Program-made: the position numbers and the translations under genes
Notes under the pieces: model-generated
Seen by the model: the letters and a program-made list of their open reading frames with translations, nothing else
The model's database searches: none
Told to the model about the DNA's origin: nothing
Source of the DNA: Escherichia phage vB_EcoM_PHB05
Length of the DNA stretch: 64,000 bases
Sequence record: NC_052652.1
Strand: one strand, 5' to 3'
Shown: positions 40,347-64,000 of the stretch, piece by piece
Position numbering within the stretch: position 1 is the stretch's first letter
Layout: each line of letters opens with the position of its first letter

Positions 40347-43121
40347 TTAGTTTACCAGTTTATTTATATCTGGTAAAAGATTTATTTCACCTAAGAAATC
40401 ACCTTCACCTTCCTCTAGCCAACTCTCATATGCTTGTGCATGATTATAGTTACCATCAAAAGAATCTGCAACAAATTTTTCTACAGTTTTTCGAGATGTG
40501 CCAGCGCCAAATACACCAAGTTTAATACCATTGATCGGTAAAGTGGTGCTTGTGGGTACTTTCTCTGTTGCAACACGGTTGATATCTATAATCTCCTGTA
40601 CGGTTGTATTCCATTGTAAGCATTTAACACAACGGGTGTGCGCTACATACAGTAGGTTTCGCTCTGCCTCTTCTAGTCCTACCCATTCACCAGTCTTTTT
40701 ATCATAGTTGGAAGGAAAATCATTAGCAACAATAACCTGATCCCACTCCAAACCTTTAGACTTATGTGCTGTAGTCAGTGTGACTTTTGCTGTAGGAGAA
40801 TTTCTATGCGTTCTAAGTGTATGTGCTATAGTGTTTGCCTTACCAGAAACTACAATGTTTAACAAGCGTTTAGCATCTGGATCAGCCTCTGCACACTCAA
40901 CAAATTCATTCCAGTCTGCGTAAGGTAATACAGTTTCATGTTTTACTTTCTCAATATCTCCTCTCCGAAGAGCATTAACACTATCTACCATAGAGATAAA
41001 ATCCCTGGTATCTACGTTAATAATAATTTCTTCCCCATCTGCAATACGATCCATTGCCTCCATAAGCAAGGTTAAATTCTTGCGAAAGATGATAGTGTAA
41101 GGTTTTGTATAGTCTACAACATCTGATTTGTAGCTACCTACTACAGTATCAAAGCCTTTACCAACCAAAGGATGACGCAAAGGTTCTTTATCACTTAAAA
41201 TCATATTCGCAATGTTTGCCACTTTGGGGCCAAAACGGAAGCAAGCAGTTAATGGAAGCTCTGCCCCATACTTAGCTGTTTCAATCATCATATTAGAGCT
41301 ACCTCTAAATTGATAAATGCAGTTATGGCTAAGAATTTCATTGCCAAAGAAGTTAGCAGTATCCTCTACTTCAATATCATAATAGATACCATCACTATCT
41401 ACAATGTCCACAATTTCTTCTGCCGTTACAGTATCACCATCTTTTACCAACACAGACATGCCTTTAAACAAACCCGCTGCCGGAATTAAATTATATTTGG
41501 CAGTGTTCACAGAGGACATGCATTCTTTTAAAGATGCAAACGGAACTATTTCAAGGATCTTTTGTGCAAAACTCAATGCTTCACGATAAGAATTGAAATA
41601 TTTACGTACACGGTAACGACCTTCCAATTTAGCAACACTTACACTTACACCTGCTTCAATGAGTGAAGCATAGATTGGCATTTCACTTTCTGTCCACTCA
41701 AAGCTAACTTGTGTTCCTTTACAACCTTGTGCTCGCAAAGTCACTGTTAACATTTTTCTTGCATCTACTGTACAATTGATGCTGTGCCAATGTGGATAAG
41801 CAAAATGATAATCTTTATCCTCTAAAAGTTTAAAACCATTTTGTCCGAATTGTTCAAAGATATTGTTGATCCTTTCTTGATTAATACCGCGTGAACTTGC
41901 CTCAAATACACAAGTAGGAATGCCATATTGTAAACTGTATGCCATTTCTTTTTCCATAGCAGCTTCACGGTTTTCAACAATATCCAACACCCACAACTTC
42001 TGTGCTTTTTCAGAACGTGTACGTTGCCCCAGTTTAGAAAAACCTTCTTTATCATCGAATTTGTTAGTGATCCCTACTCGGAAACCTAAATCTTTTCTCC
42101 ACATTAGGTATACCACCATCTGATCATCTTTCAGAACATAAGGTGAAGCCCAAATACGATGGTTATGTGTCATATCTAAAGTCTTACCTTTAGCAGTAAT
42201 AATATTCCTACCTTTTGTACGTGTAGATAAAGTTTTATTTGTTACTTTTCTAAATGTAACTTTACCGTTAGAATAAGACTCTACCTTATCACCGATTTGC
42301 AGGTCTTTCATTGTAACCTGACCATTTTCGGTATTAAGTACCGTGTTTTCTGACACACATTGGAATTCATCACCAACTACCACAATTTGTTTGGCAGATT
42401 TAGCATTCCGCAGAATAGACAAGAATGCAGGGTTAACATCCTGGAATTCATCCCCAAAAATAATGTCATAACCAAGATCAGCACCAGACAATTCAAACAA
42501 TTTTACATAGGTGTCATGCGTCATCAAAGTATCTGTGTTAGGGTCAATGCGCTCTCGCCACAATTGTTTTGCATACTTAACTACTTCTGTAATTAGTTTG
42601 TGTTCGTTAATACCTTTTCTTTTAATATCTGCAAGATGTACACTAGGAAAATGTTTACGGCTGATAAAAGGATCATCCGAAAATTCAAACTTACCTACGG
42701 TTTGCTTGATCATTAAACCAATCATAGCACGAGTTAAAAGTGTTTTCCCTCGTTTATCAATAAGATTATTAATCTTAAATTTCTTTGCTATCTCACTACC
42801 TGTACCTGCAACGTTAACATACTGTCCTTCTGGTCGTGACAGTTTTGCACGTAAACGATGATCCAGGAATTGATAGCAAATGGAATGCAATGTACGGCAT
42901 TCTACATTTGGTGGCATCTTACGCCGTGCTTCTTCTGCCATGCTTTTATTGAAAGCTAAGTAAAGAATGCGATCTTCTGTACTGTTAGCCAGCAAATAAA
43001 GTGTTGACGTTTTTCCTGATCCAGATTTAGCTTGGATAGTTAAAAACCGATGATCTGGAAAAGCCTCCTTAATAGCTGTTTGCTCTTCTGTTGGAGTAAA
43101 ACTCAACTCTTTCTTAGCCAT
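40347..43121 (-). CDS. UvrD/PcrA-like SF1 DNA helicase precursor containing an intein in motif III, 924 aa from Met-14
   Basis: Walker A AKSGSGKT, motif II IIFGDEFQD, motif III split as VVVGDEFQ | intein | CIYQFRGSS; start at internal ATG to avoid overlap. Confidence 0.75.
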   Translation of the reverse strand: MAKKELSFTPTEEQTAIKEAFPDHRFLTIQAKSGSGKTSTLYLLANSTEDRILYLAFNKSMAEEARRKMPPNVECRTLHSICYQFLDHRLRAKLSRPEGQYVNVAGTGSEIAKKFKINNLIDKRGKTLLTRAMIGLMIKQTVGKFEFSDDPFISRKHFPSVHLADIKRKGINEHKLITEVVKYAKQLWRERIDPNTDTLMTHDTYVKLFELSGADLGYDIIFGDEFQDVNPAFLSILRNAKSAKQIVVVGDEFQCVSENTVLNTENGQVTMKDLQIGDKVESYSNGKVTFRKVTNKTLSTRTKGRNIITAKGKTLDMTHNHRIWASPYVLKDDQMVVYLMWRKDLGFRVGITNKFDDKEGFSKLGQRTRSEKAQKLWVLDIVENREAAMEKEMAYSLQYGIPTCVFEASSRGINQERINNIFEQFGQNGFKLLEDKDYHFAYPHWHSINCTVDARKMLTVTLRAQGCKGTQVSFEWTESEMPIYASLIEAGVSVSVAKLEGRYRVRKYFNSYREALSFAQKILEIVPFASLKECMSSVNTAKYNLIPAAGLFKGMSVLVKDGDTVTAEEIVDIVDSDGIYYDIEVEDTANFFGNEILSHNCIYQFRGSSNMMIETAKYGAELPLTACFRFGPKVANIANMILSDKEPLRHPLVGKGFDTVVGSYKSDVVDYTKPYTIIFRKNLTLLMEAMDRIADGEEIIINVDTRDFISMVDSVNALRRGDIEKVKHETVLPYADWNEFVECAEADPDAKRLLNIVVSGKANTIAHTLRTHRNSPTAKVTLTTAHKSKGLEWDQVIVANDFPSNYDKKTGEWVGLEEAERNLLYVAHTRCVKCLQWNTTVQEIIDINRVATEKVPTSTTLPINGIKLGVFGAGTSRKTVEKFVADSFDGNYNHAQAYESWLEEGEGDFLGEINLLPDINKLVN
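41322..42359 (-). mobile_element. Intein (about 346 aa) inserted in helicase motif III, with probable endonuclease-sized insert
   Basis: Begins with Cys (CVSENTVL), block B MTHNHRI, C-terminal block GIYYDIEVEDTANFFGNEILSHN followed by +1 Cys; flanking exteins rejoin into a canonical motif III. Confidence 0.7.
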
Positions 43122-47856: not shown

Positions 47857-48123
47857 TTAATCCCCTTCATATTTAGGTAAAGGCATATATGCCACAATAG
47901 GAGGGTAATCAAAGTGAAAATGATGGTTCACCACAATAATCTTACCAGACATACTTTTATGCACTTCACAATACCCTTTTCCACCATCTTCCATTACCAC
48001 CACATACTCACCTAGTGGGATATCGTATGGATCTTCTACTTTTACCCATCCTGTCATTTTGTAAACTCCTCGTAGTAAGGTAAAGCCTTGATCAGTTGTT
48101 CTGAAGTGCCATTTTGCACCCAC
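47857..48123 (-). CDS. Hypothetical protein, 88 aa
   Basis: Track ORF. Confidence 0.35.
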   Translation of the reverse strand: MGAKWHFRTTDQGFTLLRGVYKMTGWVKVEDPYDIPLGEYVVVMEDGGKGYCEVHKSMSGKIIVVNHHFHFDYPPIVAYMPLPKYEGD

Positions 48124-48189
48124 GTAACACCATTGTCAACAGAAACATACCCTTTTTTGTCAATAAATTTACGCAGACAGCCAGTGAAC

Positions 48190-48369
48190 TTATTTTTGTA
48201 GATCATTTCTTCTTTCCTTTTTGATTACAGCCCCATCACTCCCTTGCCAAACTTCCGATCTGAATTCCATCTCAAACCACTCACCACCGCAAAAACGGCT
48301 ATGTTCAACACGTCTATCTTCCTTCATTGCTTCTTTAGCTTCGATAGAAGTTAGTTCGATGTTTTGCAT
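48190..48369 (-). CDS. Hypothetical small protein, about 59 aa (first gene of the leftward block)
   Basis: Track ORF 48190..48543 trimmed to internal Met (MQNIELTS) with RBS AAAGGAG. Confidence 0.25.
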   Translation of the reverse strand: MQNIELTSIEAKEAMKEDRRVEHSRFCGGEWFEMEFRSEVWQGSDGAVIKKERRNDLQK

Positions 48370-48487
48370 TTGTTTTTCTCCTTTCATTTGGTGTGCGTTA
48401 ATCTTAACAAAATAAAAATGTATGTCAATACTTGATTTGAAATTAGTTTCTGGTACTCTGTGTGTATCGTAACAAAAGAGGTTAGAT

Positions 48488-48778
48488 ATGAACATCACAC
48501 TAGCAACTAAGAATATTACAGAAACTTTCGATGGTTTTGGCATTATTATTGCTGTTCATGGACATAACGAAAAATGGTTAGCCTCTTTTGAAGAGGACAA
48601 AGAACGCAATGTACGTTTGAATGCACCAATCAAAGTTTTACACCAGGTAGGTGAGAATAAGAAACAATGGAGATCATACAAAGAGTGGAACATTACAAAC
48701 GAATTAATACACAAACTTGACAAAGTGATAAACATGTTCGACAATGCACCAAGCAGTGCAAAACGTGTTTTACTATAA
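48488..48778 (+). CDS. Hypothetical protein, 96 aa
   Basis: Track ORF; first gene of rightward block. Confidence 0.4.
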   Translation: MNITLATKNITETFDGFGIIIAVHGHNEKWLASFEEDKERNVRLNAPIKVLHQVGENKKQWRSYKEWNITNELIHKLDKVINMFDNAPSSAKRVLL

Positions 48779-48789
48779 AGGAGAGTGAT

Positions 48790-49143
48790 ATGAAAATTGT
48801 ACACGATGAAATTCAATTTGAAGAGAGTGATCTTCTTGATCTGGATGTGACACTAAGTAAACTGATCTACAACGCACTTTCTGCATATCGTGCAAAAGTG
48901 ATAGCCACAAACAATGTTAAAATTCCTAGCGGGTTACTTCGTCGGATGTACCCACACGCTAAAGGTGACTATCTACCTTATATGGAAGAACGAGCAGCAA
49001 TACACTGGTTAGAAATTCTTGAAAAAATGGAGTCCTCTTTTAAGGATTCAACTCCACCTGAAGAAGTTAATGAAAAACAACGGCAAGAGCGTTTAGAAGG
49101 TCGTATTTTGTTTGCTAAGTATTTCCATAATTTGTGGAGCTAA
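48790..49143 (+). CDS. Hypothetical protein, 117 aa
   Basis: Track ORF, RBS AAGGAGAG upstream. Confidence 0.4.
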   Translation: MKIVHDEIQFEESDLLDLDVTLSKLIYNALSAYRAKVIATNNVKIPSGLLRRMYPHAKGDYLPYMEERAAIHWLEILEKMESSFKDSTPPEEVNEKQRQERLEGRILFAKYFHNLWS

Positions 49144-49241
49144 ACATATCTGGTAAAATCACTTATATGTTCTTAGTATACTTGTGTAAAGAAGTTATCT
49201 AACAGGTGTTGAGTGGACTATTAAATTAGGAGGGCTTTAAT

Positions 49242-49580
49242 ATGTTTAGTAAAGAAATGAGAGAAGTAATTGCCACTTTGGTAGTTGATCATGGTGTTGA
49301 AGTTGAGCGTCACGTTTGGAACGATGAACCTCCTTTCTTCGATTTGGCATCACGAGCTAAAAGTCATATGCACCTGCTGGAAGACGGTAATGAGTTTGTT
49401 CTCCGTATGCGTTATGATCGAGAGTTTCGAATTCCGCTTGACACTGAACCAGATGGTGTAGTAATGTGGTTGGCAGAACATTTCGCATACGATGCACTAC
49501 ATGGAAGAAGTTTTGGTAATGAGCGTTGGGATGCCATTTGTCGTAAGCATAATATTGAACCAGAGTACGGGAGTATGTAA
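49242..49580 (+). CDS. Hypothetical protein, 112 aa
   Basis: Track ORF. Confidence 0.4.
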   Translation: MFSKEMREVIATLVVDHGVEVERHVWNDEPPFFDLASRAKSHMHLLEDGNEFVLRMRYDREFRIPLDTEPDGVVMWLAEHFAYDALHGRSFGNERWDAICRKHNIEPEYGSM

Positions 49581-52863: not shown

Positions 52864-53415
52864 ATGCGGATTACTGATAAGTATGTGTTCTTCTTCTCGG
52901 CAAAAGATGAATTTAGCAACTGGTATCTATCATCTTTTATTGAACCTTTAGCACCCAAGTATAATAATTCTATTACAAGTTCTGTTGAATTTACTTGTGT
53001 GGAACAATATATGATGTGGAGAAAAGCATGTTTGTTTTATGATTACAGTATTGCATCTTCTATTTTAACCGGAGATCTAAGATATACAGGAGAAAAAGAA
53101 CAAGCATATTATAAACGACTAGGCAGATTAGTTAAAGATTATGATGAAGATACCTGGGCTTCTTTACGGGAGAAGATTGTCAAGCGTGGTTTGTATCTTA
53201 AATACACACAAAATGAAGATCTCAAAAATAAACTTATCGCTTACGCAGATAAGGAGTTCGTAGAGGCAAGCCCCTATGATTCTATTTATGGTATCAAAAT
53301 GGGGATGTGGGATCGGGACGTGGAAAATAAGGATTGTTGGAAAGGACAAAATCTTTTAGGAAAATGGCATACAGACCTTGCTGTTTATCTAAAATCACAA
53401 TCTGATATTTCCTGA
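52864..53415 (+). CDS. NADAR-domain protein (YbiA-like), 183 aa
   Basis: Motif FFFSAKDEFSNWYLSSF ... FTCVEQYMMWRKACLFYD matches the NADAR/DUF1768 signature (FF..SNW...F.S.EQ.mM..KA..F.D). Confidence 0.6.
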   Translation: MRITDKYVFFFSAKDEFSNWYLSSFIEPLAPKYNNSITSSVEFTCVEQYMMWRKACLFYDYSIASSILTGDLRYTGEKEQAYYKRLGRLVKDYDEDTWASLREKIVKRGLYLKYTQNEDLKNKLIAYADKEFVEASPYDSIYGIKMGMWDRDVENKDCWKGQNLLGKWHTDLAVYLKSQSDIS

Positions 53416-53631
53416 TATTTTGAAAATTTTTATTTTTATAAAAAGGGGTGTGGGTTTCATGTACGGAAATCCACCCTCTGAATAATATATCCAGAGTAAG
53501 TAGTATTCTATACCCTGTTAATAAAGTATTTAATTTGTTTGTTGGACTATGGTATCTGATCTTTAAAAGGCATACTATCTCTTAACTACTACTTATAACA
53601 GAACAGTAAAATCATTTTTATAAAAAGTACA

Positions 53632-53845
53632 AAATTATTTAAAGTTTTTACAGATTTTTGGATACAAATTTTGAAAATGAAAAGTTCAAGTTTGGTCAAA
53701 ATTATTTAAAGTTTTTGTACGTATTTCTATCCAGATTTTGAAAATGAAAACTTCAATTTTTTAAAAATTCCCCAGTTTATTTAAAGTTTTTTTGCCTTTT
53801 TCCGTAGAAAAATCAAAAATGAAAAGTTCAATTTCGTGTTTTTAT
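53632..53845. repeat. Three tandem direct repeats of about 68 bp (core ATTATTTAAAGTTTTT ... ATTTTGAAAATGAAAAGTTCAA)
   Basis: Core strings TATTTAAAGTTTTT and TTTTGAAAATGAAAAGTTCAA each recur three times at about 68-bp spacing. Confidence 0.6.
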
Positions 53846-53857
53846 GGGTATGCGTAT

Positions 53858-53975
53858 GATAATCATTCTCATTTGTAAATGAGAATCATTATCATTTAAT
53901 TATGTAAATGATAAGCATTCTCACTAAGAGAATGAGAATCATTAGCAAATGAGAATTTTTCTCATTTAGAGAATA
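53858..53975. promoter_or_regulatory. Array of Fur-box-like palindromes (AATGAGAAT C ATTCTCATT and GATAATCATT units)
   Basis: TGATAATCATTCTCATTTGTAAATGAGAATCATTATCATTT... contains several overlapping near-matches to the enterobacterial Fur box GATAATGATAATCATTATC. Confidence 0.45.
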
Positions 53976-54228
53976 ACGCGCAGGGGCGGTGTTTGTCTCG
54001 CGCTCCCGTGTCCCCTCGCCATACAATAAGAATAGCATAACCAACAACAAAAGCAAGCGATTATTTTTATCTTTACATTTCTTTACAAATTTATTTTGGA
54101 CGAGCTACCGGCGATCAACCTTCCAACCAGTGCCCCCTGGTATGTTAGCCCCGCCTTTACGCCGTGGGGGTGGCGTTTCCTCTTCTGTATGTAAAACAGT
54201 ATAAGCCCGATCCCTGGGCTTGTCAAGA

Positions 54229-54495
54229 TTATTTTTTGTTTTCTTGCCAGGAAAGGACACCTAACCAAAAATACATATCGCCCCGCGCCCCTGGCGGGAT
54301 CTTGCTTTCCCCGCCGCCACTGCAAGCCCATAAATAACCATTTACGAACGTATCAAAGTGATCTATCTCTTCCACCTTATGATCGCCCAGGTTGAGAACG
54401 GTTTCAACCTTTAAGCCCGTTGCGCTTGCTACCTGGTGCACCGTGCCGCCTTGCCAGCCCAATGAGTGCATGAGATGTAAAGGAGTATTTGTCAT
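54229..54495 (-). CDS. Early-block small protein (leftward gene of divergent promoter pair), 88 aa
   Basis: Track ORF; preceded on the - strand by a TTGCTA-17-TATTAT promoter, a GC stem-loop and AGAAAGGG RBS, the same cassette layout as the + strand early genes. Confidence 0.4.
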   Translation of the reverse strand: MTNTPLHLMHSLGWQGGTVHQVASATGLKVETVLNLGDHKVEEIDHFDTFVNGYLWACSGGGESKIPPGARGDMYFWLGVLSWQENKK

Positions 54496-62138: not shown

Positions 62139-62197
62139 TTGACACCGATCCCCAATATGGTATTATTTACCACGTAGGCGGGAAATGGTTTCCCGCC
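62139..62197 (+). promoter_or_regulatory. Early promoter (TTGACA -17- TATTAT) plus stem-loop GGCGGGAAATGGTTTCCCGCC
   Basis: Cassette copy; ATG at 62222. Confidence 0.55.
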
Positions 62198-62221: not shown

Positions 62222-62611
62222 ATGCGCAACCTGGTTTCTGTTTCTAACGTTGAAAAATTTCAATCCTTGCAGGGTATCATTAACAACGTAGCGCCTTTTT
62301 TAGTCAATGGCTTGATTGCAAAGATGAAAAATAAACATCATGCGGCATGGTCTGCTTATTGCTTTGATAATGATGAAAAAGCGGCTGAAATGATGTTAAA
62401 TATGCTTTTGGATAGTGTAGAATCATCTTTACCGGAAAACATCGCAGAAGAGATCACCTATCGTTATAATATGGCGATCACTTACCAGGAGGTTGCGCAA
62501 TTCAACATGATGGATGATGACGAACAACAGGATCAAGAAATGTTCTGGGAGTATGCTGATCGTCAATCGGCTTTTGATGAAAAGTTAGCGATGTATTATA
62601 ATGAATATTAA
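62222..62611 (+). CDS. Early small acidic protein, 129 aa
   Basis: Track ORF with cassette. Confidence 0.45.
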   Translation: MRNLVSVSNVEKFQSLQGIINNVAPFLVNGLIAKMKNKHHAAWSAYCFDNDEKAAEMMLNMLLDSVESSLPENIAEEITYRYNMAITYQEVAQFNMMDDDEQQDQEMFWEYADRQSAFDEKLAMYYNEY

Positions 62612-62622
62612 TACACGGTAAA

Positions 62623-62653
62623 AGAAAGGGGCGCACTAAGCGCCCTTTTTTGT
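62623..62653 (+). terminator. Rho-independent terminator (AAAGGGGCGC ACTAA GCGCCCTTTTTTG)
   Basis: Perfect GC stem and T6 run closing the early block. Confidence 0.65.
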
Positions 62654-63189
62654 ATTCTTTTTTCACGATGGAAACAACACGTAAAAAATAGGCGTAAAGG
62701 TGGCGTAAAACCATCTAAAACCGACTGTAACCGCTTAAACAGGGTAACAATGAGTAATCACCTTACCAGGATGAAAAAGCTGTTATAAAGCTATTTAGAG
62801 CGTTTAAAGCACACAGGAAATAATTTGCTTTTTATCTTGCCTTTTATTCTGCTTTTGATTATTATTATGGAACGGGCGGCACCTGGGGACAGGGGAAGAT
62901 AATCACCGGAAGATCCCGCTATATATTGATAGCTTCTACCTATTAAACAACAAAACATCAAAGAAATAAACTATCAAATCTTTTTACCTAAATAAAGATG
63001 ATAACTTTTACCTATCAAAAACGTTCACCGAAAAAAGTGAATAGATCGCGGTATTGAGCTAATCAAGGAGCAGATGAATAACCATACCATGAAGATCATA
63101 AGGCGCTTACAGCGTGTTTTAGACCGCTTATTTTTAATTTCTTCATGCAACTATCTGGCAAAAACAGCCTTTTTCTTGTCTTTCCTCTT

Positions 63190-63260
63190 AAATAATAATC
63201 ATTCTCATTTATAGCTGATTATTTATGCAATAAACTGAATAATATAATAATGATAATCAT
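63190..63260. promoter_or_regulatory. Second Fur-box-like element (AATAATAATCATTCTCATTT ... AATGATAATCATTCTT)
   Basis: Same TAATCATTCTCATT core as at 53862; lies on the far side of the early block. Confidence 0.4.
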
Positions 63261-63616
63261 TCTTAACTTAAGGCCATCTAACCTATAAAATAATAAGCTA
63301 TCTAACTAAATTAAAGCTAATTATCTCACCTTTATTTATAACTTACTGTTATTATCTCATTGATAACCTTATATTAAACAACAATAACTAATATAAATCA
63401 TTACCAAACTAAATATAATCTATCTAACCTTTAAAACTATAACTATAATCTATCGAATTGTTGCACAAAGTAACTATTAAATTGTTAGTAACATTACTAA
63501 ATAATTAATATCCTATCTATTTATGATCTAATCTTTACCTTACTATCTATTACCTAAATAATCATTTCATACAATAATTATAACAAGAAATATAATTAGC
63601 AAGCGTATCATTAGCA

Positions 63617-63790
63617 GCCTATGCCGGACACATAGGCGGCTAATAATAACGCAACTACACATCCCACATAATAACCATCACCGATAGTTATTATTTGTGC
63701 TTATGTAGCTTGCAACAACTGCAAGCGCAACAATATACATGGTATATTGTATCCCTTACATTGTTGCGGTGCGTTATTATTAGCTAATGT
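63617..63790. repeat. Nested inverted repeats in AT-rich non-coding DNA
   Basis: Outer 13-bp arms CTAATAATAACGC / GCGTTATTATTAG, inner 9-bp arms CGCAACAAT / ATTGTTGCG, central palindrome CAATATACATGGTATATTG; plus hairpin GCCTATG-N7-CATAGGC. Confidence 0.5.
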
Positions 63791-64000
63791 TTGGAACATT
63801 GGCTATAATATAAGCTATCCAATAATAAACATAGGGAAAATGACACTGATGATCATAATGCGCCACCTTCCAGGGGGCGCTATGTGAACACAAAGAAACC
63901 TTTCTTGTCAAGAAAAATATTACCATTATTGCGCAAAATTATTTATATATGAATAGATGGTTTTTCATACTATTGCCCCCATATAGCTTATCATTTGTTG

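What the first reader, a model, noticed from the sequence alone, without database searches (positions are those of the whole stretch)
62650..64000. 1.35-kb AT-rich non-coding region with iteron-like CTATCTA repeats and nested inverted repeats
After the last early-gene terminator there is no convincing ORF. The region carries five or more copies of a CTATCTA(A/T) motif (around 63296, 63416, 63447, 63512, 63542), a hairpin GCCTATG-N7-CATAGGC, a nested inverted-repeat structure (13-bp outer arms, 9-bp inner arms, central palindrome CAATATACATGGTATATTG) and a second Fur-box-like site. This looks like an origin of replication, a genome terminus or packaging region, or a long structured ncRNA locus.
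Basis: seen in the sequence. Interest (0 to 1): 0.55.

Follow-up and report, generated by a model that had tools for sequence, protein, structure and literature searches.

The report
Gene-free control region beside phage genome end
This gene-free stretch is the DNA just before the terminal repeat of a phi92-like coliphage genome, and it holds a previously undescribed folded element of about 175 bases, conserved across the subfamily, that probably helps copy or package the genome end.

Summary
In detail: there is no conserved gene, the DNA is very AT-rich, and the repeats and hairpins exceed chance.

The window is a phi92-like myovirus, 99% identical to ECGD1. The interval is the unique DNA just left of the ~343-bp direct terminal repeat (DTR). 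That repeat is mapped in phi92 and BME3 and is exact in the Schickermooser record. By homology it starts about 70 bp past the window's end, so no terminus lies inside the interval.

CTATCTA repeats are real but occur only in this genus, so they are not conserved iterons. Three things are conserved family-wide:
- A very unstable, G-poor AT tract, the least stable DNA in the 64 kb.
- ATTAGC repeats.
- The nested inverted repeats (63611–63784), a ~175-nt multi-helix element: 99.4% of cells paired, 13 compensatory pairs, and wobble pairs tolerated only on the − strand. It has no Rfam, plasmid or bacterial match.

Fur-box-like operators are over-represented and positionally conserved.

Best reading (about 0.45): a T7-like cis-acting module at the concatemer junction, in which the − strand folds as single-stranded DNA. 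The main rival is a − strand non-coding RNA (about 0.3).

The parts
62623..62651 (.). Bidirectional intrinsic terminator that closes the upstream + strand early-gene cluster. In most relatives a copy of it directly abuts the conserved terminal region.
   Evidence: Terminator scan on both strands. The same sequence is repeated after the extra gene cassette in arall, Paula and phAPEC8.
62652..62978 (+). Variable cassette junction. It is an orphan promoter-like site (TTGCCT-17-TATTAT at 62837-62865) plus leader, whose downstream gene(s) are missing in this phage and in ECGD1. These genes (phi92 gp247/gp248-like, arall_112, Paula_0069/0070) are present in relatives.
   Evidence: EF1-1 lacks the whole segment. 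A 58-124 nt piece is shared with rV5-type phages.
62979..63232 (.). Conserved block A, about 68% identical to Phapecoctavirus and Klebsiella phages. It ends in a Fur-box-like operator (63188-63206; 5 mismatches here, 4 in phAPEC8-type phages) and an invariant TATGCAA (63224-63230). On the - strand this gives a promoter-like TTGCAT-N18-GAGAAT that overlaps the operator.
   Evidence: There is no conserved secondary structure on either strand.
63246..63264 (.). Fur-box-like site AATAATGATAATCATTCTT, with 3 mismatches to GATAATGATAATCATTATC.
63240..63600 (.). Extremely AT-rich, G-poor tract. It is the least thermodynamically stable DNA and has the most negative GC skew in the whole 64-kb window, which makes it a candidate DNA-unwinding region.
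   Evidence: 22 G in the 421 nt of 63190-63610. It holds the three least stable 100-bp windows. The 300-bp mean is -1.046 against a window mean of -1.272 (sd 0.043), and the skew is -0.645. The compositional asymmetry, but not the sequence, is conserved in other genera.
63274..63549 (+). CTATCTA repeats. Exact copies start at 63298, 63420, 63513 and 63543, with variants at 63274 and 63450. They are specific to this genus.
63611..63784 (-). Conserved structured element of about 175 nt. It comprises hairpin 1 (63611-63643); a 15-bp outer stem (63639-63653 / 63770-63784); a 5-bp helix (63656-63660 / 63703-63707) enclosing hairpin 2 (63668-63694); hairpin 3 (63708-63726); and a genus-specific extra hairpin (63726-63768) that contains the palindrome 63731-63749.
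   Evidence: 25 distinct sequences from several clades. 99.4% of cells are paired on the - strand, 13 pairs have double changes, 0 of 500 shuffles reach this, and slid controls give 26-53%. There are 39 A.C cells on the + strand (G.U on the - strand) against 0 G.T. Consensus energy is -57.5 (-) versus -50.7 (+) kcal/mol. The covariance model scores 170 bits on the - strand and 33 on the + strand, with a single copy in the window.
63058..63788 (.). ATTAGC/GCTAAT repeats, seven copies starting at 63058, 63316, 63595, 63610, 63639, 63779 and 63783. This is the repeat conserved across the whole subfamily. Several copies form the arms of the structured element.
   Evidence: 7 copies against 0.62 expected (maximum 4 in 1000 shuffles). 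Nine relatives have 5-13 copies against about 1 expected.
63860..63915 (.). A GC-rich hairpin, GCGCCACC-N6-GGGGGCGC (63860-63881), and a near-palindrome, TTTCTTGTCAAGAAA (63901-63915). The palindrome gives TTGTCA on the + strand and TTGACA on the - strand. Both are conserved only within the genus.
63991..64000 (+). The first copy (TCATTTGTTG) of the boundary repeat array. In ECGD1 four CTATTTGTTG copies lie 22-23 bp apart, and the last ends exactly at the left edge of the terminal repeat (...TTGTTG|AGCC...).
   Evidence: The same cut-site context...TGTTG|AGC, occurs in Schickermooser.

Best explanation
The interval is the right-terminal, gene-free control region of a phi92-like (Justusliebigvirus) genome. 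In a replicating concatemer it lies immediately upstream of the short direct terminal repeat (DTR).

Shown: its position next to the DTR, its modular anatomy, and selection for base pairing in a ~175-nt multi-helix element, with wobble pairs tolerated only on the - strand.

Inferred: it works like the right-end (concatemer-junction) region of T7-type short-DTR phages. The exceptionally unstable AT tract opens, by breathing, transcription or a passing fork. The - strand of the adjacent nested palindromes then folds into hairpins as single-stranded DNA. This folded DNA, together with the ATTAGC repeats as protein-binding sites, serves as the priming, nicking or loading site for the replication that duplicates the terminal repeat, and for terminase to cut at the conserved GTT(G/A)|AGC boundaries about 285 bp downstream. 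The Fur-box-like operators would tie promoter activity around and inside the repeat to host iron status.
For: Position:
- The phi92 record annotates 343-bp DTRs, and they map to ECGD1 L002 6470-6811, about 70 bp past the window's end.
- BME3's record ends exactly at the phi92 right boundary, and its paper reports a 342-bp DTR with PhageTerm used for packaging analysis (PMC12210895).
- The Schickermooser record (Phapecoctavirus) has an exact 329-bp repeat with the same boundary motifs.
- PMC12695924 states that Stephanstirmvirinae genomes end in DTRs.

Conservation: every relative examined keeps a 1.5-2.1 kb stretch here with no conserved gene.

Structure:
- Covariation statistics, and strand asymmetry at 8 pair positions against 0.
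- The - strand is more stable both as RNA (-82.5 vs -67.4 kcal/mol) and as DNA (-47.6 vs -42.5).

Favouring DNA over RNA:
- The helices are long and nearly perfect (15, 12 and 8 bp), and two hairpins have 3-nt loops.
- No consistently placed sigma-70 promoter lies upstream and no intrinsic terminator lies downstream in any clade.
- ATTAGC repeats occur both inside and outside the stems.
- The element sits next to the least stable DNA in the window.

Precedent: T7-type phages must duplicate the repeat before packaging, a hairpin DNA species containing the repeat is seen in T7 infection, and a replication origin plus the concatemer junction suffices for packaging (summarised in PMC4281155, citing Chung & Hinkle 1990).
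Against: - There is no experimental datum for this phage family. No RNA-seq or origin-mapping study was found.
- Termini are inferred by homology, because the window stops before the repeat.
- G.U tolerance is the classic signature of RNA and is weaker evidence for DNA.
- The strand asymmetry is partly confounded by a C/T-biased substitution spectrum on the + strand: 9 C/T-only columns against 1 A/G-only column among unpaired columns. Allowing for this, my estimate of the probability rises from about 0.008 to about 0.02.
- The element lies 210-285 bp from the cut site, not at it.
- No DnaA or IHF consensus sites occur in the interval.
- The cumulative GC-skew minimum is at about 48-49 kb.
- This phage has no T7-type RNA polymerase, so the T7 mechanism cannot transfer literally.
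Confidence: 0.45

Rival explanations
1. The element is a - strand non-coding RNA of about 180-200 nt, transcribed antisense to all flanking genes. It could act as a regulator or as a replication primer or packaging RNA, or it could be processed from a longer leftward transcript.
For: Every non-Watson-Crick cell is G.U on the - strand: 39 cells at 8 positions, against none on the + strand. An invariant U.G pair and a helix that requires G.U appear only on the - strand. The RNA fold is -82.5 kcal/mol with z = -8.1. Unpaired columns are C-poor on the - strand. Multi-branch covarying structures are usually RNAs (general knowledge).
Against: No consistently placed promoter or terminator is found in any clade. 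TATAAATA is not enriched. No Rfam family matches, even at E = 10 or below. The helices are long and perfect, with triloops, which is atypical for ncRNAs. The flanks are not conserved between genera.
Confidence: 0.3
2. The region is the primary origin of replication. The AT tract would be the unwinding element, the ATTAGC (or CTATCTA) repeats would be initiator sites, and the hairpins would be a lagging-strand priming signal, all independent of packaging.
For: This is the least stable DNA in 64 kb, with an extreme strand skew. Repeats are enriched. Hairpins on the - strand would be exposed by a leftward-moving fork (inference).
Against: CTATCTA is not conserved beyond the genus and is irregularly spaced. 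No DnaA or IHF consensus sites occur, and no initiator gene is adjacent. The cumulative GC-skew minimum lies at about 48-49 kb. The tight positional link to the terminal repeat in two genera suggests end-related function.
Confidence: 0.12
3. It is a purely double-stranded regulatory region. The palindromes and repeats would be binding sites for Fur and phage dimeric proteins that control early promoters, with no folded single strand involved.
For: Fur-consensus sites are over-represented and positionally conserved. Promoter-like hexamers overlap them. The ATTAGCTAAT palindrome is present.
Against: Protein-binding palindromes conserve sequence, whereas hairpin 2 changes almost all of its sequence while staying a hairpin. 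The mismatch asymmetry between strands is not expected for duplex recognition. The 15-bp outer arms are 116 nt apart.
Confidence: 0.08
4. It is non-functional spacer or recombination scar DNA left between mobile early-gene cassettes.
For: The left third (62652-62978) is a cassette remnant, with gene gain and loss among relatives and duplicated terminators.
Against: Blocks at 62979-63232 and 63566-63790 are conserved out to Klebsiella and Citrobacter phages and metagenomic relatives. They show compensatory substitutions.
Confidence: 0.03

Closest known systems
Right-end / concatemer-junction region of T7-type short-DTR phages (origin, hairpin-forming inverted repeat and short flanking repeats next to the terminal repeat)
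   Same: There is a short direct terminal repeat (about 330-343 bp here). Unique DNA just left of it carries an AT-rich tract, inverted repeats able to form hairpins, and an array of short direct repeats that abuts the cut site. The repeat must be duplicated from concatemers (PMC4281155).
   Different: There is no sequence similarity, and no T7-type RNA polymerase or phi-OR promoter. The structure is a branched ~175-nt element rather than one simple palindrome. It lies 210-285 bp from the cut. Its function is untested. My memory of T7 details beyond the cited summary is a lead, not a test.
Single-strand initiation / complementary-strand origins (G4- or M13-type origins, plasmid ssi/sso signals) and terminal hairpins of parvoviruses
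   Same: These are multi-hairpin structures of 100-200 nt that function on one specific DNA strand. They have near-perfect stems and very short loops, and an outer stem encloses small palindromes (general knowledge).
   Different: No homologue was found in plasmids or bacterial genomes. This phage is a dsDNA myovirus, and priming activity is not shown.
Structured phage RNAs acting at genome ends or origins (phi29 pRNA, ColE1 RNA II-type primers)
   Same: The size is similar (about 175 nt), the fold is multi-helix, the element lies near a genome end, and pairing is strand-specific.
   Different: No Rfam match, including pRNA, at E = 10 or below. No promoter or terminator was found. No evidence of transcription exists.
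E. coli Fur operators
   Same: Sites match the 19-bp palindromic consensus with 2-4 mismatches. They occur in tandem arrays and overlap promoter-like hexamers.
   Different: They lie in a virulent phage, in and around its terminal repeat. Fur binding is untested, and no prior description was found in the library searched.

Membership tests
Direct terminal repeat (DTR) of phi92-like phages | The sequence is homologous to the mapped 343-bp repeat and is present at both genome ends. | tested here: not met
   The phi92 DTR aligns to ECGD1 L002 6470-6811, beyond the window. Within the window it matches only a 24-nt Fur-box stretch at 53871. The interval is adjacent to the DTR, not part of it.
Terminal non-coding region adjoining the DTR in Stephanstirmvirinae | A syntenic stretch with no conserved gene between the last right-end early gene/terminator and the DTR, with conserved blocks. 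| tested here: met
Iteron-type replication origin | Three or more direct repeats of about 17-22 bp, regularly spaced and conserved among relatives. | tested here: not met
   CTATCTA is 7 bp, spaced 24, 122, 30, 63 and 30 bp, and is absent from other genera. ATTAGC is conserved but is 6 bp and occurs in mixed orientation.
Iteron-type replication origin | An adjacent AT-rich DNA-unwinding element. | tested here: met
   The tract is the least stable DNA in the window.
Iteron-type replication origin | Host-factor boxes (DnaA, IHF) or an adjacent initiator gene. | tested here: not met
   No DnaA sites (1 mismatch or fewer) or IHF consensus sites occur in 62650-64000. The neighbours are small hypothetical early genes.
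Iteron-type replication origin | Origin activity in vivo. | not testable with these tools
   This needs marker-frequency analysis or 2D gels.
Rfam RNA families (including phi29 pRNA, tmRNA, tRNA-like and known phage RNAs) | A covariance-model score at or above the gathering threshold. | tested here: not met
   There are no hits at gathering thresholds in the window. At E = 10 or below only chance-level hits appear. No tRNA or tmRNA was found.
Independent sRNA gene | Its own promoter and terminator at conserved distances from the structure. | tested here: not met
Conserved structured nucleic-acid element (generic) | Base pairs maintained by compensatory substitutions, above shuffled and slid controls. 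| tested here: met
   13 pairs with double changes, 99.4% of cells paired, 0 of 500 shuffles, slid controls 26-53%.
Fur operator | A match to the 19-bp consensus GATAATGATAATCATTATC, beyond chance. | tested here: met
   There are 4 sites at 3 mismatches or fewer against 0.08 expected, and 6 sites at 4 or fewer against 0.79. Positions are conserved across genera.
Fur operator | Fur binding and iron-dependent regulation. | not testable with these tools
   This needs EMSA or ChIP, and infection of a fur mutant or of iron-limited cells.
T7-type concatemer-junction module | A short DTR with an inverted repeat and short direct repeats in the flanking unique DNA. | tested here: met
   Only the first boundary repeat lies in the window.
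T7-type concatemer-junction module | A phage-RNA-polymerase promoter or origin next to the junction, and a hairpin DNA intermediate in vivo. | not testable with these tools
   No T7-type signals are known for this family. The intermediate requires analysis of replicating DNA.

The most novel reading that the evidence does not exclude
The - strand element is transcribed and is a new phage RNA class: a ~175-nt branched RNA encoded beside the genome terminus of a large myovirus. It would act as a replication primer or as a packaging or terminus-processing cofactor, functionally analogous to ColE1 RNA II or phi29 pRNA. Its neighbourhood, including promoters inside the terminal repeat, would be gated by host Fur, so that genome-end processing and early transcription sense host iron status.
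Probability: 0.15. Interest if true: 0.8.

Novelty: new variant of a known kind. Interest (0 to 1): 0.55.

Why it matters
Phi92- and phAPEC8-like phages are broad-host-range coliphages. They are used in therapy cocktails and in reference collections such as BASEL.

Their terminal gene-free region is currently either left blank or filled with up to 8-11 short 'hypothetical proteins' in deposited records; the ORFs in the window's own copy have no family match.

Showing that part of it is under strong structural selection has three consequences:
- It warns engineers against using this region as a neutral insertion or deletion site.
- It gives a concrete candidate for the still unmapped pac and origin functions of the subfamily.
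- It offers a clean test case for telling single-stranded DNA structure from RNA structure using strand-asymmetric wobble pairs.

The conserved Fur-box-like operators, including two inside the terminal repeat, suggest that a virulent phage may read host iron status. I found no prior description of this.

Tried and rejected
- CTATCTA as conserved iterons: rejected, because the motif is genus-specific and irregularly spaced.
- The 46-aa ORF at 63074-63214 as a missed gene: rejected. The start codon and Shine-Dalgarno are absent outside the genus and there is no PHROG hit.
- Block A (62979-63232) as a structured, Fur-controlled - strand sRNA: there is promoter-like and terminator-like anatomy but no conserved fold on either strand. 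It is kept only as a weak lead.
- The PHIRE 'phage promoter' annotated in phAPEC8 as a clue to - strand transcription: it is just the leader hairpin that follows early sigma-70 promoters.
- T4-type late promoter TATAAATA upstream of the element: not enriched, 6 against 7.4 expected.
- A homologue in rV5-type phages: none in the one locus tested.
- Homologues in bacterial genomes or plasmids: the 76 pattern hits were all chance matches, with no model hits, and plasmids gave no BLAST hit.
- DnaA or IHF boxes and A-tract phasing in the AT tract: none.
- The arall 'repeat_region' annotation: a local 16-bp tandem duplication, not a shared feature.
- Weak Rfam PrrF hits over the Fur boxes (E = 2.4-9.8): chance level.
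- The phi92 genome paper could not be read because it is not held.
Full report
IDENTITY AND CONTEXT

The window is a phi92-like myovirus (Stephanstirmvirinae, Justusliebigvirus). Positions 62600-64000 are 99% identical to phage ECGD1 and 92-96% identical to about 60 other records. No tRNA and no Rfam family is present in the window.

Upstream of the interval, 49-62.6 kb carries small + strand early genes. Each has a sigma-70-like promoter and a leader hairpin. The last of these genes ends at 62611 and is followed by a bidirectional terminator at 62623-62651.

CHECK OF THE OBSERVATION

- No ORF of 60 aa or more follows the terminator. The 30-56 aa ORFs have no PHROG match.
- The one ORF with a good Shine-Dalgarno (63074-63214) is confined to this genus, while the surrounding DNA is conserved more widely.
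- GC is 0.299 in the last kilobase.
- CTATCTA occurs exactly four times (starting at 63298, 63420, 63513 and 63543), with two one-off variants. All are on the + strand. This is 4 copies against 0.33 expected, reached by 0 of 1000 local dinucleotide shuffles.
- The hairpin and the nested inverted repeats are present. The outer arms are 15 bp, not 13.
- The Fur-box-like site at 63246-63264 has 3 mismatches to the consensus. Such sites number 4 in the window against 0.08 expected.

WHERE THE INTERVAL SITS IN THE GENOME

- The phi92 record annotates 343-bp left and right direct terminal repeats, and the two copies are identical.
- Aligned to ECGD1, the repeat occupies L002 6470-6811. The window corresponds to L002 plus about 57,599, so the repeat would begin near window coordinate 64069, about 70 bp beyond the window. 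The phi92 repeat has no counterpart inside the window.
- BME3's record ends exactly at the phi92 right boundary. Its paper reports a 342-bp repeat and states that PhageTerm was used to determine DNA packaging (PMC12210895).
- Schickermooser belongs to another genus, Phapecoctavirus. Its record has an exact 329-bp repeat with the same boundary contexts...TGTTG|AGC... on the left and ...CGCGTTA|AGCAC... on the right.
- A 2025 paper states that Stephanstirmvirinae genomes end in direct terminal repeats (PMC12695924).
- In ECGD1, four CTATTTGTTG copies spaced 22-23 bp apart end exactly at the left boundary. The last ten bases of the window are the first copy of that array.

So the interval is the unique DNA at the right end of the genome, and in a concatemer it lies directly upstream of the repeat. 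It does not contain a terminus.

MODULAR ANATOMY FROM COMPARISON WITH RELATIVES

Every relative examined, out to Klebsiella and Citrobacter phages, keeps 1.5-2.1 kb with no conserved gene here. Some depositors fill it with short 'hypothetical' ORFs.

- **62652-62978, cassette junction.** Relatives carry one or two extra genes (phi92 gp247/gp248-like) plus a duplicate terminator at this point. EF1-1 lacks the segment altogether. In this phage only a promoter-like site and a leader remain.
- **62979-63232, block A.** It is about 68% identical across genera. It ends in a Fur-box-like operator and an invariant TATGCAA. It has no conserved fold on either strand.
- **63240-63600, AT tract.** It does not align outside the genus, and other genera have no CTATCTA there. 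They have an A/C-rich, G-poor low-complexity stretch instead. Composition is therefore conserved and the motif is not. In this window the tract holds the three least stable 100-bp windows of all 64 kb. Its 300-bp mean stacking energy is more than 5 sd from the window mean, and it has the most negative GC skew, -0.645. No DnaA or IHF consensus sites occur in the interval, and the tract shows no A-tract phasing.
- **About 63566-63790, the inverted repeats.** This is the best-conserved block in distant relatives.

THE STRUCTURED ELEMENT

I assembled 25 distinct copies from annotated phages, IMG/VR contigs and metagenome contigs.

Covariation:
- RNAalifold recovers hairpin 1, the 15-bp outer stem, hairpin 2 and hairpin 3. 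Thirteen pairs show double substitutions.
- Hairpin 2 changes nearly all of its sequence yet remains a 9-12 bp hairpin with a 3-nt loop.
- On the - strand alignment, 99.4% of 1125 cells form standard pairs. No measure is reached by any of 500 column shuffles. Sliding the partners by 1-3 columns drops pairing to 26-53%.

Strand asymmetry:
- On a fixed 44-pair structure there are 1057 Watson-Crick cells. A further 39 are A.C on the + strand, which is G.U on the - strand. There are no G.T cells on the + strand and no other mismatches.
- This occurs at eight pair positions, in different lineages.
- The - strand also gains a 5-bp helix that needs G.U pairs and has the better consensus energy, -57.5 against -50.7 kcal/mol.
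- The window's own copy folds better on the - strand as RNA (-82.5 vs -67.4 kcal/mol) and as DNA (-47.6 vs -42.5).

Caveat: unpaired columns show a C/T-biased substitution spectrum on the + strand, with 9 C/T-only columns against 1 A/G-only column. The naive binomial probability of about 0.008 is therefore better put at about 0.02, by my estimate from the T:C content of the stems. The asymmetry is suggestive, not conclusive.

Distribution:
- A covariance model built on the - strand finds one copy in the window: 170 bits, against 33 bits for its + strand mirror.
- It finds copies only in Stephanstirmvirinae-like contigs.
- It finds nothing in an rV5-type locus, in 76 bacterial-genome loci that share the seed pattern, or in plasmids.
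- No Rfam family matches, even at E = 10 or below.

REPEATS CONSERVED FAMILY-WIDE

ATTAGC/GCTAAT occurs seven times in 62980-64000 against 0.62 expected (maximum 4 in 1000 shuffles). Nine relatives have 5-13 copies against about 1 expected. The copies lie in the stems of the element and in its flanks. This motif, not CTATCTA, is the candidate protein-binding repeat.

FUR-BOX-LIKE OPERATORS

- At 4 mismatches or fewer, the window has six sites against 0.79 expected. Four form a tandem array at 53852-53946 and one lies at 63246.
- ECGD1 and phi92 have two more inside the terminal repeat, one with only 2 mismatches. Both sit just downstream of promoter-like hexamers.
- Equivalent sites occur at the same relative positions in Phapecoctavirus and in Klebsiella phages.
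- I found no description of this in the papers searched. The one 'fur box' hit concerns sitABCD in lambdoid prophages.

RNA OR DNA?

For RNA:
- Wobble pairs are tolerated only on the - strand.
- The fold is branched and covarying.

Against an autonomous RNA gene:
- No promoter scoring above 9 of 12, and none at a consistent distance, lies upstream on the - strand in 17 sequences. No intrinsic terminator follows.
- The flanks are not conserved between genera.
- TATAAATA is not enriched.

For single-stranded DNA:
- The helices are long and almost perfect, and two hairpins have triloops.
- Repeats lie both inside and outside the stems.
- The element sits next to the most easily melted DNA in the window.
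- Its position relative to the terminal repeat is similar in the two genera where the repeat is known: about 285 bp upstream here and about 210 bp in Schickermooser.

The known biology of short-repeat phages also requires repeat duplication through nicked or hairpin intermediates near the junction (PMC4281155).

I therefore favour a cis-acting DNA module at about 0.45 and an RNA at about 0.3. A stand-alone origin, duplex-only regulation and junk DNA are the lesser rivals.

COMPARISON WITH KNOWN SYSTEMS

Functionally the closest analogue is the T7-type concatemer-junction (right-end) region. Structurally it resembles strand-specific initiation signals and terminal hairpins. It is not a member of any of these by sequence. 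It is not the terminal repeat itself, it fails the definition of an iteron origin, and it matches no Rfam family (see the membership table).

VERDICT

The conserved, strand-specific ~175-nt element and the Fur operators appear to be undescribed. I rate the finding a new variant of a known kind, with moderate interest (0.55).

Noticed in passing
window 53400-54300: This is a second AT-rich gene-free region (GC 0.304). It has a 67-bp tandem repeat (53630-53760, 2 copies) followed by four tandem Fur-box-like sites at 53852, 53875, 53904 and 53928. A GC-rich stretch with no obvious gene follows (about 53975-54300).
   Followed up: partly
ECGD1 L002 6470-6811 (just beyond the window); phi92 L005 1-343; Schickermooser L137 1-329: Both boundaries of the terminal repeat share the context GTT(G/A)|AGC in two genera. 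The repeat itself carries two promoter-like sites, each followed by or overlapping a Fur-box-like operator.
   Followed up: partly
ECGD1 L002 6393-6469; window 63991-64000: Four CTATTTGTTG repeats lie 22-23 bp apart (two helical turns) and end exactly at the left cut site. They are a better candidate terminase-binding array than CTATCTA. Only the first copy lies in the window.
   Followed up: partly
window 62139-62197, and similar sites through 58-62 kb: Early genes each have a TTGACA-N16/17-TATTAT-type promoter followed by a conserved leader hairpin (for example GGCGGGAAATGGTTTCCCGCC at 62177-62197). The 'PHIRE phage promoter' annotated in phAPEC8 is this hairpin.
   Followed up: partly
window 62652-62978 versus L001, L003, L004, L006: Early-gene cassettes are gained and lost here. 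This phage and ECGD1 lack the gp247/gp248-like genes found in phi92, Paula and arall, and keep only the upstream promoter and leader. A 58-124 nt piece of that leader is shared with rV5-type phages, which suggests cassette exchange between subfamilies.
   Followed up: partly
window 63074-63214 (+): A 46-aa ORF with an AAGGAG Shine-Dalgarno is conserved only within the phi92-like genus. It could be a genus-specific micro-protein or could be spurious.
   Followed up: partly
window 63194-63232 (- strand): A promoter-like TTGCAT-N18-GAGAAT has its -10 inside the conserved Fur-box-like operator. In most relatives it faces a bidirectional terminator about 215 nt away, which is the anatomy of a possible Fur-controlled leftward transcript. 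No conserved fold was found.
   Followed up: partly
phage records MG065639, MG065656, MG065689 and others: Several records labelled 'Campylobacter phage' (host C. jejuni) are 93-99% identical to these E. coli phages in this region. The host labels look doubtful.
   Followed up: no
window about 48000-49500: The cumulative GC-skew minimum and the switch from - strand to + strand genes fall here. This is an alternative place to look for an origin or a divergent promoter region.
   Followed up: no
window 41801-41819: An isolated Fur-consensus match (3 mismatches) lies in the - strand gene block (about 11-49 kb). Whether it is inside a gene was not checked.
   Followed up: no
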